In this document: in pieces, positions 3,001 to 15,000 of the stretch
How positions within the stretch are numbered: the first letter of the stretch is position 1
How the letters are laid out: every line of letters begins with the position of its first letter
Program-made: the position numbers
Assembly: GCA_951406725.2 (NCBI GenBank)
Contig: OX597823.1
Location: 27,032,001 to 27,096,000 of the forward strand
Direction: 5' to 3'
Origin: Octopus vulgaris
Lineage: Eukaryota
DNA length: 64,000 nucleotides

Positions 3001-6000
3001 CAATGGTTGAGAAGTCAGGACTCAAAGCAGAAACAGAGGGATTTTTAATTGCAGCACAAGACCAAAGCCTCCCCACCAGAAATTACCAAAAACATCTAAT
3101 GAAAAGAAATATTACAAGTAACTGCAGAATATGTGGAGATGGACAAGAAACAATAAATCATATTATCTCTAGCTGCCCAGTCCTGGCTAAGAAGGAATAT
3201 ATTCACAGACATGACAGAGCTGGAACCTACATACATTGGAAGCTATGCCAACATTATGGAATAACAACAGAAAAATTATGGTATAGGCACACACCAGAAA
3301 AGGTCACAGAAAACGAGAAAGCAACCATACTCTGGGATATGCCGATACACACAGATAGAGAAATTAAGGCCAACAGACAAGATATAGTTGTCAGAGATCA
3401 TGAAGAAAAAAATGCTTTCTAATTGATGTATCAATACCGGCAGATGACAACGTGTCTCTAAAAGAAATGGAGAAACTCTCAAAATACAAAGACCTAGAAA
3501 TAGAGGTAACTAGAATGTGGAATCTGAAAACAGAAACAATTCCTATCATAGTAGGTGCATTAGGCATGATAAAAAAATATTCAGACAAATACGTAACAAA
3601 AACACCAGGACTTACAAACACATATAACATACAGAAAATTGCACTACTAGGCACTGCACACATCCTACGCAGAACACTTTCCATACAATAACCATCAGAG
3701 CATCACAACAAATCACAGCACATACCCAAGGCACACAGAGCTGCGCTCGGTAGTGAAGTGAAAGGACGCTATAAAAATATACTACTGAATAATAATAATA
3801 ATAATAATGATAGCAATCCTTTCTACTATAGGCACAAGGCCAGAAATTTTGGGGAGGAGACCTGTCAATTACATCGATCCCAGTGTTCCACTGGTACTTA
3901 ATTTGTTTACTCGGAAGGATGAAATGCAAAGTCGACTACGGCGGAATTTGAACTCAGCACGCATAGGCGGACGAAATAGCGTTAAGCGTGGTAAAGATTC
4001 TGCCATCTCGCCTCCTTCTTTTCAGTAATAATAATAATAATAATAATAATAATAATAATAATAATAATAATAATAATAATAATAATAATAATAATAAGCT
4101 ATGGAAGCTATGCCAACATTATGGAATAACAACAGAAAAATTATGGTATAGGCACACACCAGAAAAGGTCACAGAAAACGAGAAAGCAACCATACTCTGG
4201 GATATGCCGATACACACAGATAGAGAAATTAAGGCCAACAGACCAGATATAGTTGTCAGAGACCATGAAGAAAAAAAATGCTTTCTAATTGATGTATCAA
4301 TACCGGCAGATGACAACGTGTCTCTAAAAGAAATGGAGAAACTCTCAAAATACAAAGACCTGGAAATAGAGGTAACTAGAATGTGGAATCTGAAAACAGA
4401 AACAATTCCTATCATAGTAGGTGCATTAGGCATGATAAAAAAATATTCAGACAAATACATAACAAAAACACCAGGACTTACAAACACATATAACATACAG
4501 AAAATTGCACTACTAGGCACTGCACACATCCTACGCAGAACACTTTCCATACAATAACCATCAGAGCATCACAACAAATCACAGCACATACCCAAGGCAC
4601 ACAGAGCTGCGCTCGGTAGTGAAGTGAAAGGACGCTATAAAAATATACTACTGAATAATAATAATAATAATAATGATAATAATAATAATAATAATAATAA
4701 TAATAATAATAATAATAATAATGTTAATAATAATAATAATGATAACCATGATAATGACATACCGTGGTAGAATATTTACGCAATTTAGTTTTCACGTAGT
4801 GAATAGTGCTTAATTGTATATTTGCAATAATATTATTTAATATATACATGCTAACGTAATTGCCTTCTTACACACATAGACAGAGAGACAGGTAGACACA
4901 CACACACACACACACAAACATAGTATATATATATATGTTTGTATAATGTATAAATATATATAATTATGTAGTTTTTTATACTTACATATGTTTAATACAT
5001 ACATACTATGTATATGCATGTATATATATATGTAAACTTACATCCATGTAGATAAGTTTACATATACAAATCGATATCTATATATACATACACAAACACA
5101 CACACACACACATACATTCCAATGCATACGTGCATTCATTATTTCGAAAGCTTTTGAAATACTGCACATCATTAGTTGCACTGGATTTGAACAAGAAACC
5201 ACAAAAAAGAGTTAATAAATGTGAAAGATTCAACGAATGCATACGAATAGATGAATATACAAAAATATATAAAAACATTTCCCCGACATTTATCTTTACC
5301 AATATACATACATACATATATATATATATATATATATATATATATATATATATATATATATATATATATATGTATATATATATACATATATATATATATA
5401 TATACATATATATATATATATATATATATATATATATATATATATATATATATATATATATGTGTGTGTGTGTACACGCACGCAGACACATATTTGTATG
5501 TGTATATATATACATGTATGTATATAAATGTATATGTATATATATATATATAAGTATATATATATGTATATATATGTACATATATGTATATATATATGTA
5601 TATATATATGTATATATATATATATATATATATATATATATATATATATACCTACATACATATGCTCTTAAATTCATAGATACATACATGCATACATTTA
5701 CACATACAAACATATATATATATATGCATATATATCTCTATGTATATATATATATATATATGTATATGTGTATATATATATATACCTACACAGGTATACT
5801 CATAAATTCATAGATACATACATGCGTACATTTATACATACATATATACATATGGGTGCATGCATGTGATTCAAGAAAATATAAATCAAAGAACTTAATA
5901 TACCAACGATGAATACGATTTATCTAAATTCAGTTGAATACTATAAAATATCAGAAGTCAATGAAGAATTTATGATTTCTTATAATATATATGTTATAAG

Positions 6001-12000: not shown

Positions 12001-15000
12001 TACTCACCCCGAATTTATATATATATATATACATATGCACAAACAAGATATTTGCGTTTGGGTACTTTACCAGCAGTATATTGGATAACCGATATCCCAT
12101 AGCGAGTTACCCTCATAACCCCTATCTTTACTTTGTACTATATATATATATATATATATATATATATATATATATATATATATATATAAATGTGTGTGTG
12201 TGTGTGCGTTTTGTCTATATTTTACAAACACCTCTTTGTCCTATTTCTAAAAACGTAAATAAAAGCATCAACTGATATCTTACAAAATATAAAACATTCA
12301 TGTTCGGACTTAAATCTTGGTTGCATATAGACGTGCTTCTCTCTCTCACTCTTTAACAAACACACACACACACAAATGCATGTATATATATATATAGAGA
12401 GAGAGAGAGAGAGAGAGATAGATAAATAGATAGATAGATAGATAGATAGATAGATAGATAGATAGATAGATAGATAGATAGATAGATGGATGGATAGATA
12501 GATAGATAGATAGATAGATAGATAGATAGATAGATAGATAGATAGATAGATAGATAGATCGATAGATAAATAGATCTATAAATAGATAGATAGATAGATA
12601 GATAGATAGATAGATAGATAGATAGATAGATAGATAGATAGATAGATAGATAGATAGATAGCAAAAATCAAATAAAGTTTGAATTCTTATAACATATATA
12701 TTATAAGAAATCATAAATTCTTCATTGACTTCTGATATTTTATAGTATTCAACTGAATTTAGATAAATCGTATTCATCGTTGGTATATTAAGTTCTTTGA
12801 TTTATATTTTCTTGAATCACATGCATGCACCCATATGTATATATGTATGTATAAATGTACGCATGTATGTATCTATGAATTTATGAGTATACCTGTGTAG
12901 GTATATATATATATACACATATACATATATATATATATATATACATAGAGATATATATGCATATATATATATGTTTGTATGTGTAAATGTATGCATGTAT
13001 GTATCTATGAATTTAAGAGCATATGTATGTAGGTATATATATATATATATATATATATATATATATATATATATATATACATATATATACATATATATAT
13101 ACATATATATATACATATATGTACATATATATACATATATATATACTTATATATATATATATATACATATATATACATATATATATATATATATATATAT
13201 ATATGTGTGTGCAAGTGTAAACATGTATACTTGGTACCCTGCTTCATGAATTGTGTTACGTTGATTAGTATTACCGTTAAAACAACGTTACTGTTGGTTT
13301 TGTTAAAAATGGTAGTACATTTAGTTAGAATGCATTTACTGAACCATACGAAGCATGATAATCCAATGTAATGTGATATATTGTTCATTGTTGTTCTTCA
13401 TGTGTTTTGCACATGTGATTAATATGTACGATTTGCCTATGTGTGTATATGTGTGTATATTTGTATATTTTATATGTATATATGTGTTTATGAGTATATA
13501 TATATATATATATGTGTGTGTGTGTGTGTATTTTGAGTATCTGTCTTATCATTTATTTTCTTGTTGTTATTGGATAGTATGGGAAGCATGTTTTTTATAT
13601 ATCAATATTATTATTATAATTTTATAGTTATGTATATCCTCTGAAGAGGCCTTTGGTTATTTAAACAGACAAATATCATCTTTAATGCCTAAGACTATAC
13701 TACAATGGCATATATGGGCAATTTAAGTTGGATTGCCTCTTGACCATAGGCTGAAACAGCTGTAAGGAGCAGTTTATTTGTATTATTTTAATTTTATTAT
13801 TAATTTGCATATTGATGTATATTGTTCTGTTCGATTTTCATGTTCCTATTTGTATAATTAATAAATAATATGAAATTGTAATATCCGTAAGTTGATGATC
13901 GAAATGAATTTGTTCCTCCATTTTCTTATATATATATATATATATATATATATATATATATATATATATATATATATATATATATATATATATATATCTT
14001 TATATATATATATATATATATGCGCGATGACATTTGGTAAGCGGTATCGATTTTACAAATCTGTAAATAATAATAATAATAATAATAATAATAATAATAA
14101 TAATAAAAGTGACACAGACAGACTGTATGTACAAAGAAAAAGGGGGAAGCGGACTTATTGGATGCAAACACAGTATTAGAGCAGAAGAAAACAACATAGC
14201 CTGGTTGGCAAAAAATGCCACAGAACAGCTGTTATCAGAAGTAGGGAGGTCAGGCTTGTTTAGGATGAAAGATTGCATAGAAAAAGCACTATACAAGAAA
14301 TTGAAAATGAATGAAACTGAAAATAGGTGGGAAAAGAAAAGAATGCGTGGTCAATTTTATAAGGAAGTTGAAGATTCGACAGACAGAAAAAAAGATGGCT
14401 GTGGATGATTAAAATTGATTTAAAACTGGAAACAAAAGCCCTAATCTGTGCTGCACAAGAGCAAGCACTAAGAACGAACTACATAAAATACAGAATAGAC
14501 AACACATCAGAAAGTGATAAGTGCAGAATCTCTCGACAAGACGGTGAAATCGTATGGCATATTAGCAGCCAATGTATGCCACTAGCCCAGAAGGAATATA
14601 AAAATACGCCACGACAATATATCCAGGCTTGTCCATTGGACACTTTGCAACAAGTATGAACTTGACAGAGAAAAAATTTGGTACGATAACAAACCTGAAG
14701 GCATTGTCGAAAATAGAAATGTAAATATCCTATGGTATTTTATAATTCAGTGAGACCATGGGATTGAAAATAGGAAGCCGGACATGCTCTTAATTGAGAA
14801 AGAAAACAAACTATGCAGGATCATAGACATAACATGCACAGCGGACAACAAGGTGCAGCACTACACCGATCGCATATCGCAGTTCCAGCAAAATCAGTTA
14901 TTCTCAAATAACCAGAGGCAGCTTTTTAAGAGCTTCGGAAGAAATACAGAAGATAATACACCTCCTGAAGCAGAGGAATCCTGTCAATTTTGGAATAACA

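What the first reader, a model, noticed from the sequence alone, without database searches (positions are those of the whole stretch)
5530..13170. Young Naiad element inside a 7.6-kb foldback that also duplicates apparent host flank
Seen: an open RT-GIY-YIG frame is cut at 11017, exactly where a ~2.2-kb inverted copy of its own 3' region begins. The duplication runs ~1.3 kb beyond the HHR, through TA/TATC microsatellites and unique-looking DNA (5530-6620). Known: inverted pLTRs at PLE 5' truncations. Inference: a read-through transcript or template switch onto flanking DNA copied host sequence, making a long hairpin-capable structure with outward-facing ribozymes. Arms differ by a few substitutions and by microsatellite lengths.
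Basis: partly seen in the sequence, partly recalled or inferred. Interest (0 to 1): 0.7.

Follow-up and report, generated by a model that had tools for sequence, protein, structure and literature searches.

The report
Head-to-head Penelope-like retroelement with long arms
A very young, broken copy of a Penelope-like jumping gene sits beside an upside-down copy of its own tail, as this kind of element often does, but the tail runs about 1.25 kb past where relatives end and may be carried-along neighbouring DNA.

Summary
Window 5537-7734 and 11018-13163 are inverted copies. They show no substitutions in unique sequence, 6 substitutions in repeats, and 9 microsatellite length differences. They flank a 3.3-kb unique spacer that carries an open but 5'-truncated RT/GIY-YIG frame (11016->8845, minus strand). 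A hammerhead-ribozyme motif faces outward in each arm.

The label is wrong. The endonuclease is C-terminal, a hammerhead is present, and the DKT, CxCX5C, CxxC and CxH motifs match the Hydra clade of Penelope-like elements (PLEs), not Naiad.

Head-to-head inverted 5'-truncated copies are the norm for PLEs. I found them in 3 related loci.

The length is unusual. In relatives the hammerhead lies 79-194 nt after the stop codon, and the copy ends about 55-120 nt later, next to (TA)n. Here the hammerhead is 1920 nt after the stop. A (TA)8 lies 113 nt past it, and the arms run on for another 1.19 kb (clean) to 1.25 kb (ragged).

Most likely both strands of a TA-rich target primed on a 3'-extended template whose extra tail was once the flank of a progenitor copy.

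No other copy of this family could be reached, so "host flank" is plausible but unproven.

The parts
8845..11016 (-). Open, 5'-truncated RT + C-terminal GIY-YIG reading frame (723 codons plus stop). It lacks about 100-115 N-terminal residues, including the RWK motif and the start codon.
   Evidence: All 61 invariant columns of the 25-sequence alignment are kept, including YRDD, CxCX5C, the Y..YIG core, R, H, E and N.
11017..11018 (.). Head-to-head junction between the long minus-strand copy and the short plus-strand copy.
   Evidence: The repeat ends exactly at 7734 / 11018. Position 11017 does not pair with 7735.
7735..8844 (-). Unique 3' untranslated stretch between the stop codon and the repeated part. 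It holds GT/TA low complexity (about 8640-8790), a T-rich unit (8061-8360) and GC/GT low complexity (7735-8050).
   Evidence: No hammerhead motif is found here.
5537..7734 (-). Left arm: the 3'-terminal 2198 nt of the long copy. A ragged extension reaches about 5469.
11018..13163 (+). Right arm: an inverted, 5'-truncated copy of 2146 nt of the same 3' region. A ragged extension reaches about 13223.
6851..6928 (-). Hammerhead-ribozyme motif, type I. It has a CUGAAGA core, a 4-bp helix II with a bulged A and a 41-nt insert, GAAA, helix III C-AUAU-G with a palindromic loop, U-A at the cleavage site and a 4-bp helix I.
   Evidence: The architecture matches PMC4209133 passages. Rfam is negative.
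11828..11905 (+). Mirror copy of the hammerhead motif in the right arm.
6725..6740 (-). (TA)8 tract 113 nt after the hammerhead cleavage site. It is the candidate relic of the target site at the natural 3' end of a progenitor copy. Its mirror lies at about 12016-12031.
   Evidence: The background chance of such a tract at +55..+160 is 10%.
5537..6724 (-). Distal extension beyond the clade-typical 3' end. It contains unique stretches (about 5840-6020, 6395-6560, 6620-6720), (TA)24 at 6570-6617, (CTAT)87 at 6025-6372 and a TA-rich array up to 5784. It is either former flank or lineage-specific tail.
   Evidence: blastn finds no other copy in the window.
12032..13163 (+). Mirror of the distal extension in the right arm: (TA)25 at 12139-12188, (ATAG)69 at 12386-12661 and a TA-rich array at 12833-13204.
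5302..5468 (.). Long (TA)n with a short (GT)n just outside the left arm. It is the probable TA-microsatellite target.
   Evidence: On the right only about 40 nt of (TA)n (13164-13205) precede unique DNA.

Best explanation
This is one recent insertion of a Hydra-clade Penelope-like element, made in the way usual for this class.

Proposed steps:
1. The GIY-YIG endonuclease cut both strands of a TA-rich microsatellite.
2. Each free 3' end primed reverse transcription near the 3' end of element RNA.
3. One cDNA reached 5.5 kb, stopping about 110 codons into the ORF. The other reached 2.2 kb.
4. The two were joined head to head at 11017/11018. This gives two arms that end at the same template position and a hammerhead facing outward in each.

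The template was unusual. It carried about 1.25 kb beyond the point where elements of this clade end (about 110 nt past the hammerhead, next to (TA)n). That extra tail is most likely former flanking DNA of a progenitor copy, read through by transcription. It may have been picked up in this event or earlier in the lineage. Its TA-rich end could pair with both strands of a (TA)n target.

Shown: the repeat, the junction, the truncation, the clade motifs, the hammerhead motif and the departure from the clade's dimensions.

Inferred: priming on both strands, the read-through origin of the tail and the role of TA pairing.
For: Structure and youth:
- The structure is as described.
- The arms have no substitutions in unique sequence, so the event is young.
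- The missing N-terminal part is nowhere else in the window. A profile built from 71 of 120 homologues hits only the retained residues at E 0.0022, and the next hit is at E 1.9. The 5' part was therefore not merely displaced by an inserted duplicate.

Clade: the DKT, CxCX5C, CxxC..E and N..E..CxH motifs are present, and no conserved Cys pair lies in the GIY-YIG core. This matches PMC8557442 section 11.

Head-to-head inverted 5'-truncated copies in related loci:
- L006: 758 nt, 100% identity, 771-nt spacer, main copy also 5'-truncated.
- L004: 274 nt, 94.5%.
- L001: 1519 nt, 92%.
- Many zero-spacer palindromic hammerhead pairs also occur.

Literature:
- A purified PLE protein cleaves and extends both strands (PMC11167929 main text).

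Natural end of the clade:
- Stop-to-hammerhead distance is 79-194 nt in 8 of 8 loci. Three more loci (L002, L005, L011) fit when searches are combined.
- Repeats end 55-117 nt after the hammerhead.
- A (TA)>=5 tract lies roughly 30-120 nt after the hammerhead in 6 of 8 loci.
- Six Hydra consensus sequences are 2078-2601 bp long, all insert in (TA)n, and the hammerhead starts 104-183 bp before the end (supplement passages).
- In the window a (TA)8 lies 113 nt after the hammerhead.

Precedent for captured host DNA: the Pen1_Av spacer of 0.9-1.5 kb (PMC3846280 section 6).
Against: - No second copy of this family was available, so the natural 3' end is inferred from relatives that are at most about 40% identical in protein.
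- This copy also has 1920 nt between stop and hammerhead, against 79-194 nt in relatives. That stretch must be internal. The lineage therefore tolerates long non-coding DNA, and the distal tail could be a regular part of the family.
- In vitro, the Anolis PLE starts reverse transcription at a fixed internal site. Extra 3' sequence did not move the main product, and only a faint band came from priming at the 3' end (PMC11167929).
- The (TA)8 has a 10% chance background.
- No target-site duplication can be read.
- On the right only about 40 nt of (TA)n precede unique DNA.
- Rfam does not call the hammerhead, and its fold is no more stable than shuffles (z 0.18).
Confidence: 0.55

Rival explanations
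1. The whole 2.2 kb is the ordinary 3' region of this particular family, which has grown by microsatellite expansion and old internal duplication. Nothing in the arms is host flank. The structure is then a plain PLE head-to-head insertion.
For: - The 1920 nt between stop and hammerhead is certainly internal and equally atypical.
- About half of the 3' region is microsatellite or low complexity.
- The stretch after the stop (8845->8018) is loosely collinear with 7734->6930. The score is 126.5 against 39 +/- 6 for block shuffles, and the T-rich units are 63-68% alike. This suggests an old duplication carried by the lineage.
- Both arms end at the same point.
Against: - All relatives examined, and all six published Hydra consensus sequences, end within about 55-183 nt of the hammerhead.
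- A (TA)8 lies exactly where a natural end next to a (TA)n target is expected.
- The arms carry no recognisable start of the ORF, as a tandem-derived pseudo-LTR would.
- The collinearity score is inflated by low complexity.
Confidence: 0.22
2. After an ordinary insertion, a DNA-level fold-back occurred. A break at 11017 was followed by snap-back or template switching to 7734, and synthesis ran leftward. This copied the element's tail together with the local host flank and replaced the element's 5' part.
For: - The topology (arms plus a unique spacer) is what a fold-back inverted duplication gives.
- The missing 5' part of the ORF is absent from the window.
- The arms are nearly identical.
- The left arm runs into a long (TA)n with no clear junction.
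Against: - The same topology arises routinely from PLE insertion itself, as in L006, L004 and L001.
- The junction falls inside the element and the arms contain exactly its 3' end. PLE insertion predicts this, whereas a random break would give it only by coincidence.
- No pairing extends across 7735/11017.
- Both outer ends lie in TA-rich DNA, as expected of the clade's target preference.
Confidence: 0.12
3. This is an assembly artefact. Either two separate copies of the family were joined wrongly through their shared sequence, or a chimeric read produced the inverted arm.
For: - PLE inverted and tandem structures are known to trouble assemblies (PMC8557442 section 6).
- The only differences between the arms are in error-prone microsatellite and low-complexity DNA.
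Against: - A missed-adapter fold-back read gives a palindrome with no spacer. Here a 3.3-kb non-palindromic spacer separates the arms.
- The junction is a clean single point.
- The same architecture is seen in independent assemblies of relatives.
Confidence: 0.06

Closest known systems
Hydra clade of C-terminal EN+ Penelope-like elements (Craig et al. 2021, PMC8557442; for example Hydra-1_Obim of Octopus bimaculoides, 2507 bp)
   Same: It shares the C-terminal GIY-YIG endonuclease, the DKT motif, the CxCX5C linker, CxxC and CxH around the conserved E and N, and the lack of a conserved CCHH motif. It also has a hammerhead downstream of the ORF and lies in TA-microsatellite surroundings.
   Different: Published consensus sequences are 2.1-2.6 kb, with the hammerhead about 100-180 bp from the end. 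This copy is at least 5.5 kb even though it is truncated. Its hammerhead is 1.9 kb after the stop, and a further 1.3 kb follows the hammerhead. Protein identity to the nearest database relatives is only 32-46%.
Standard PLE insertion with an inverted 5'-truncated copy (inverted pseudo-LTR) at the 5' end
   Same: It has the head-to-head arrangement, both arms ending at the element's 3' end and outward-facing hammerheads. This matches the descriptions in PMC8557442 section 6 and PMC3846280 section 6, and it matches L001, L004 and L006 here.
   Different: The arms are 2.2 kb, against 0.2-0.8 kb in most examples (L001 reaches 1.5 kb). The long copy is itself truncated and has no upstream direct pseudo-LTR. 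The arms run past the clade-typical end.
Pen1_Av of Adineta vaga: host DNA captured between the ORF and the 3' pseudo-LTR (PMC3846280)
   Same: A PLE carries 0.9-1.5 kb of non-element DNA within its mobilised unit. The same paper proposes read-through transcripts with simple-repeat flanks and template jumps.
   Different: There the foreign DNA lies upstream of the terminal repeat, and copies were compared to show it. Here part of the extra DNA lies downstream of the hammerhead, and no second copy was available.
3' transduction by LINE-1
   Same: Transcription reads past the element's own end, so downstream flank is reverse-transcribed and inserted with it.
   Different: L1 primes on a poly(A) tail added after a downstream signal. 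A PLE has no poly(A) requirement, and the one tested in vitro starts at an internal site. My one literature search for PLE transduction found nothing relevant.

Membership tests
Naiad PLEs | GIY-YIG endonuclease N-terminal to the RT (permuted order) | tested here: not met
   The endonuclease motifs lie at the C-terminal end of the frame, after the RT and thumb. The defining feature is taken from PMC8557442, abstract.
Naiad PLEs | DKG motif changed to DKA | tested here: not met
   The motif reads DKT. The feature is from section 6.
Naiad PLEs | No canonical hammerhead | tested here: not met
   A hammerhead motif with the full core is present in each arm.
Hydra-clade PLEs | C-terminal GIY-YIG endonuclease on a single RT ORF | tested here: met
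Hydra-clade PLEs | DKG motif changed to DKT | tested here: met
   D13 and K14 are invariant, and T follows in the query and in most of the 24 relatives.
Hydra-clade PLEs | Linker Zn-finger-like motif of the form CxCX5C upstream of GIY-YIG | tested here: met
   C583, N584, C585 and C591 are invariant or nearly invariant.
Hydra-clade PLEs | CCHH motif inside the GIY-YIG core absent; CxxC and CxH beside the conserved E and N | tested here: met
   No conserved Cys pair lies between the IY and YIG columns across 25 sequences. The query's own two Cys there are not conserved. C680, C683, E686, N701, E705, C710 and H712 are conserved.
Hydra-clade PLEs | RWK motif near the N-terminus | tested here: inconclusive
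   This part is missing from the truncated copy. 71 of 120 listed homologues have RW[KR] in their first 90 residues.
Hydra-clade PLEs | Canonical hammerhead downstream of the ORF | tested here: met
   The motif is present, but it lies 1920 nt after the stop against 79-194 nt in relatives. Rfam models do not call it.
Hydra-clade PLEs | Insertion into (TA)n | tested here: inconclusive
   Both outer ends lie in TA-rich arrays. There is a long (TA)n on the left and only about 40 nt on the right. No target-site duplication is readable.
Hydra-clade PLEs | Short element (generally under 3 kb) | tested here: not met
   The distance from the truncation point to the outer end is 5.5 kb.
Hydra-clade PLEs | RT groups with reference Hydra families in a phylogeny | not tested
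   No reference protein sequences were on hand. There is indirect support: the hammerhead of related loci L016 and L009 reads the same as that of Hydra-2_aMil in the supplement.
PLE head-to-head (inverted pseudo-LTR) insertion | Inverted 5'-truncated copy abutting the 5' end, with both copies ending at the same 3' position | tested here: met
   The outer ends agree to within the ragged microsatellite (about 70 nt).
PLE head-to-head (inverted pseudo-LTR) insertion | Target-site duplication and optional 30-40-bp tail | tested here: inconclusive
   The ends are buried in TA/GT microsatellite. The literature notes the same difficulty.
3' transduction of flanking DNA | The natural 3' end is identifiable inside the copy, and a source locus carries the same downstream sequence | not testable with these tools
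   There is only a candidate internal end, the (TA)8 at 6725-6740. No eukaryote genome collection was open. An exact 27-mer scan of genome contigs found 0 matches.

The most novel reading that the evidence does not exclude
This copy records a true 3' transduction by a Penelope-like element. A read-through RNA carrying more than 1 kb of a progenitor's downstream flank was reverse-transcribed from both strands of a (TA)n target. Priming succeeded because the self-complementary TA repeat at the RNA's far end could pair with either nicked strand. That would give PLEs an L1-like route for moving host DNA. In the same stroke it would create long hairpin-forming loci with paired ribozymes.
Probability: 0.3. 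Interest if true: 0.5.

Novelty: new member of a known kind. Interest (0 to 1): 0.3.

Why it matters
As it stands, this is a well-preserved example of the known head-to-head PLE insertion, and it corrects a clade label.

It would matter more if the distal 1.25 kb proves to be carried-along flank. Capture of host DNA by PLEs is documented in rotifers, but downstream (3') co-mobilisation is not described in the papers I could search.

A very young copy with an intact RT/endonuclease frame, zero arm divergence in unique sequence and a datable junction would be a good substrate for working out how PLEs choose their start site for reverse transcription.

A 2.2-kb near-perfect inverted repeat is also a likely source of double-stranded RNA and a possible fragile site. 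Both points are inference.

Tried and rejected
- Rfam, at gathering threshold on the whole window and at E <= 10 on 5000-13700, gave no hammerhead. The only hits were microsatellite-driven miRNA look-alikes, which I discard as low-complexity artefacts.
- Pfam gave no family for the ORF or for two homologues. The accessions precomputed for the homologues (PF26215, PF28514) are not in the copy searched.
- An apparent CUGAUGAG at about 7505 is not a hammerhead, because its GAAAC partner lies on the other strand (by eye).
- blastn of 5000-13700 against the window found no further copy of the family.
- An exact 27-mer scan of genome contigs found 0 matches.
- I searched for the missing N-terminal 100 residues in all six frames with a profile. 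Nothing turned up in the arms or flanks. I therefore rejected both the idea that the arms are a tandem-type pseudo-LTR carrying the ORF start and the idea that the 5' part was pushed to the right of the repeat.
- I compared the left flank with the right flank for an older outer inverted repeat. Only SINE-like and low-complexity matches appeared.
- I looked for a degenerate hammerhead in 7735-8844 and found none.
- I considered a model in which a separate 2.2-kb non-autonomous unit pairs head to head and the ORF piece inserts later. I did not adopt it, because the low-complexity tract runs unbroken across 7734/7735 and the ORF piece would then lack any 3' end of its own.
- My first, stricter hammerhead script missed the main motif. 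The relaxed one found it.
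Full report
**What is there**

The window has no N and is AT-rich and full of microsatellites.

The repeat finder, blastn and a gapped alignment agree on a large inverted repeat. Its clean core is 5537-7734 on the left and 13163-11018 on the right, 2198 and 2146 nt. Within the core there are 6 substitutions and 9 indels. All of them lie in CTAT/CT/TA microsatellite or in a CACGC-type low-complexity tract. The unique stretches, roughly 1.3 kb by my reading of the block list, are identical. 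A further ~70 nt on each side (to about 5469 and 13223) align only raggedly within TA/GT repeats. The inner boundary is sharp at 7734/11018.

Between the arms lies 3.3 kb of unique, non-palindromic DNA. On the minus strand this spacer carries a frame that is open from 11103 to 8845. The first 29 codons of that frame are just the read-through of the right arm. Real homology starts at about 11016. Five full-length homologues align from their residues 101-117 onward, so about 100-115 residues and the start codon are missing.

**Ribozyme**

Rfam finds no hammerhead at gathering threshold or at E <= 10. A motif scan finds one on the minus strand, 6928->6851, and its mirror at 11828-11905. It has these features:
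- a CUGAAGA core;
- a 4-bp helix II with a bulged A at its 5' end and a 41-nt insert;
- GAAA;
- a helix III of the form C-AUAU-G with a palindromic loop;
- U-A at the cleavage site;
- a 4-bp helix I.

[quoted passage not shown] Its fold is no more stable than shuffles (z 0.18), so the call rests on the motif, not on energy.

**Which element**

The protein search returned 135 proteins with E <= 0.001 among 7016 candidates. The best 120 are listed, with best-segment identities of 27-46%. The few named ones are mostly from Argonauta hians, a cephalopod. I take that only as a hint about the host.

In a 25-sequence alignment the query keeps all 61 invariant columns. It shows DKT, a CxCX5C linker ahead of the GIY-YIG core, CxxC next to the conserved E, CxH after the conserved N, and no conserved cysteine pair inside the core. 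The relatives carry an RWK motif near the N-terminus.

These are the features Craig et al. list for their Hydra clade (PMC8557442 section 11). Naiads are defined by an N-terminal endonuclease, DKA and the absence of canonical hammerheads (abstract and section 6), and all three are contradicted here. The same paper states that cephalopod Naiads are old remnants (passage). I did not build a phylogeny with reference sequences. The only indirect link is that the hammerhead of related loci L016 and L009 reads the same as that of Hydra-2_aMil in the paper's supplement.

**Is the fold-back unusual?**

The fold-back itself is not unusual. The literature describes an inverted 5'-truncated copy at the 5' end as a frequent PLE arrangement (PMC8557442 section 6; PMC3846280 section 6). 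A purified PLE protein cleaves and extends both DNA strands in vitro (PMC11167929 main text).

A scan of genome contigs with the alignment gave 115 pattern matches, of which 22 encode relatives, in 17 loci. All are in records filed as bacterial MAGs or symbionts, evidently host DNA. Among the ten loci I compared with themselves, three show the head-to-head layout:
- L006 has a 5'-truncated copy abutted by a 758-nt, 100% identical inverted copy of its own 3' end, with a 771-nt spacer. This is the same topology as here.
- L004 has a 274-nt inverted arm.
- L001 has a 1519-nt inverted arm.

Several zero-spacer palindromic hammerhead pairs are also present.

**Where it departs from its relatives**

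| Measure | Relatives | This copy |
|---|---|---|
| Stop codon to hammerhead core | 79-194 nt in 8 of 8 loci | 1920 nt |
| Repeat end after the hammerhead | 117, 57 and 55 nt in L003, L004, L006 | 1318 nt to 5537 |
| (TA)n tract after the hammerhead | (TA)>=5 roughly 30-120 nt after it in 6 of 8 loci, read from the printed sequence | (TA)8 at 6725-6740, 113 nt after it |

- Stop-to-hammerhead distance: combining the stop positions with the list adds L002 (79 nt), L005 (134 nt) and L011 (126 nt). L001 has no hammerhead in the 150 nt left on its contig.
- Published consensus sequences: the supplement of Craig et al. lists six new Hydra consensus sequences of 2078-2601 bp, all with (TA)n preference. 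One is Hydra-1_Obim of Octopus bimaculoides at 2507 bp. In its ribozyme table, what I read as the hammerhead start lies 104-183 bp before the consensus end. The column headings were not in the passages I saw.
- The (TA)8 in this copy: the repeat runs on for another ~1.19 kb (clean) to ~1.25 kb (ragged) beyond it. A (TA)>=7 tract falls in a +55..+160 window at 10% of window positions, so this is supportive but not strong.

**Interpretation**

The most economical reading is an ordinary PLE insertion. Both strands of a TA-rich target primed on element RNA, and the two cDNAs (5.5 kb and 2.2 kb) were joined at 11017/11018. The template RNA extended about 1.25 kb beyond the clade-typical end. Such an extension is what a read-through into the flank of a progenitor copy would give.

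Its TA-rich terminus (5537-5840) could pair with either strand of a (TA)n target. That would explain why both arms start at the same place. This last step is my inference. Whether the extension was picked up in this event or earlier in the lineage cannot be told from one copy.

**Points against**

- The in vitro work found a fixed internal start site, with only a faint product from the RNA's 3' end.
- This copy's 1.9 kb between stop and hammerhead shows that the lineage carries long non-coding DNA anyway.
- That stretch is loosely collinear with the proximal arm, hinting at an old internal duplication.

**Rivals**

(a) The whole tail is the family's normal 3' region.

(b) A DNA-level fold-back copied the element's tail plus local flank. 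A profile of the missing N-terminal 100 residues finds nothing anywhere in the window. So the 5' part was not simply displaced, although it could have been lost.

(c) Misassembly. A missed-adapter chimera is excluded by the 3.3-kb non-palindromic spacer, but a wrong join between two copies is not excluded.

I could not test any of these further.

**Comparison and novelty**

The closest known matches are:
- the Hydra clade, for the protein and ribozyme;
- the standard inverted-pseudo-LTR insertion, for the topology;
- Pen1_Av of Adineta vaga, for host DNA carried inside a PLE unit. It has a 0.9-1.5 kb spacer between the ORF and the terminal repeat (PMC3846280 section 6). That paper's discussion proposes read-through transcripts and template jumps.

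One full-text search for 'Penelope-like' with 'transduction' and 'read-through' returned a single, unrelated L1 paper, seen as a search listing only. I therefore found no printed description of downstream co-mobilisation by a PLE. One search is thin support for saying there is none.

I rate this a new member of a known kind with an atypically long 3' region. It is of modest interest unless the transduction is confirmed.

**Papers and what I saw of them**

- PMC8557442: abstract, sections 6, 11 and 15, passages, and supplement passages.
- PMC11167929: abstract and the whole main text.
- PMC3846280: abstract, sections 6 and 11.
- PMC4209133: passages.
- PMC13282606: passages only. It reports PLE counts in Octopus vulgaris and is not used for any claim.
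- 10.64898/2026.07.22.740005: abstract only.

Noticed in passing
window 13641-13764 (+), with (TA)n at 13920-14020: A second hammerhead-like motif lies just right of the right arm. It has the same CUGAAGA core, a GGCC/GGCU helix II with an insert of about 95 nt, and GAAAC-AGCU-GUA. It ends 155 nt before a long (TA)n. It looks like the 3' end of an older, 5'-truncated PLE in the same orientation as the right arm, so the new insertion landed beside an old one.
   Followed up: partly
window 29600-31100 (-), 32761-33030 (+), 53995-54650 (-): Three further, degenerate PLE remnants of other families are present, at 26-52% protein identity per matched segment to the query and four homologues. The first has a T-rich unit downstream of its ORF end, followed by what looks like a decayed hammerhead (CUGAAGA plus a 9-bp helix II, but no GAAA). 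A TA-rich tract follows about 100 nt further on (by eye).
   Followed up: partly
window 31076-31293 and 31326-31543: A 218-nt inverted repeat, 97% identical with a 32-nt spacer, sits at the 5' end of the 29.6-31.1 kb PLE remnant. It is a near-palindromic snap-back at a truncation point, of the kind PMC3846280 ascribes to self-priming.
   Followed up: partly
window 8061-8360 vs 7092-7377; also 1472-1711, 4637-4727, 29384-29537: A T-rich unit (sense strand) recurs in the element's unique 3' stretch and in the arm, at 63-68% identity. It also recurs at other places in the window, including just after the ORF end of the second PLE remnant. It could be a conserved PLE 3' feature or mere low complexity.
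   Followed up: partly
window 8848-11016 (-), ORF residues about 405-465 and 545-620: Two N/T/Q/H/R-rich linkers, about 60 and 75 residues long, lie between the thumb and the WFNxP block and ahead of the endonuclease linker. Most of the 24 aligned relatives lack them. They recall the asparagine-rich inserts of rotifer Penelope ORFs.
   Followed up: no
window 35698-36204; 26457-26693, 33537-34017, 28645-28832; 678-1089, 3864-3987, 16711-16873: Several families of short interspersed repeats (about 90-190 nt, 76-93% identical) occur, some with a tRNA-like box. They are probably SINEs of the host genome.
   Followed up: no
loci L001-L017 (genome contigs): Seventeen contigs filed under bacterial MAGs or symbiont genomes encode Hydra-type PLEs with hammerheads. 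The records include a Solemya gill symbiont, Endozoicomonas, Leptonemataceae and an unnamed 'bacterium' bin with 9 of the loci. This is animal host DNA binned with bacteria.
   Followed up: partly
locus L004 7052-7268, 7741-8086; L009 8254-8415; L005 1840-2091; L008 18-245: Perfect or near-perfect zero-spacer palindromes occur in these related loci. In L004 and L005 they centre on pairs of hammerhead-bearing PLE 3' ends. This shows how often these elements create inverted duplications.
   Followed up: no
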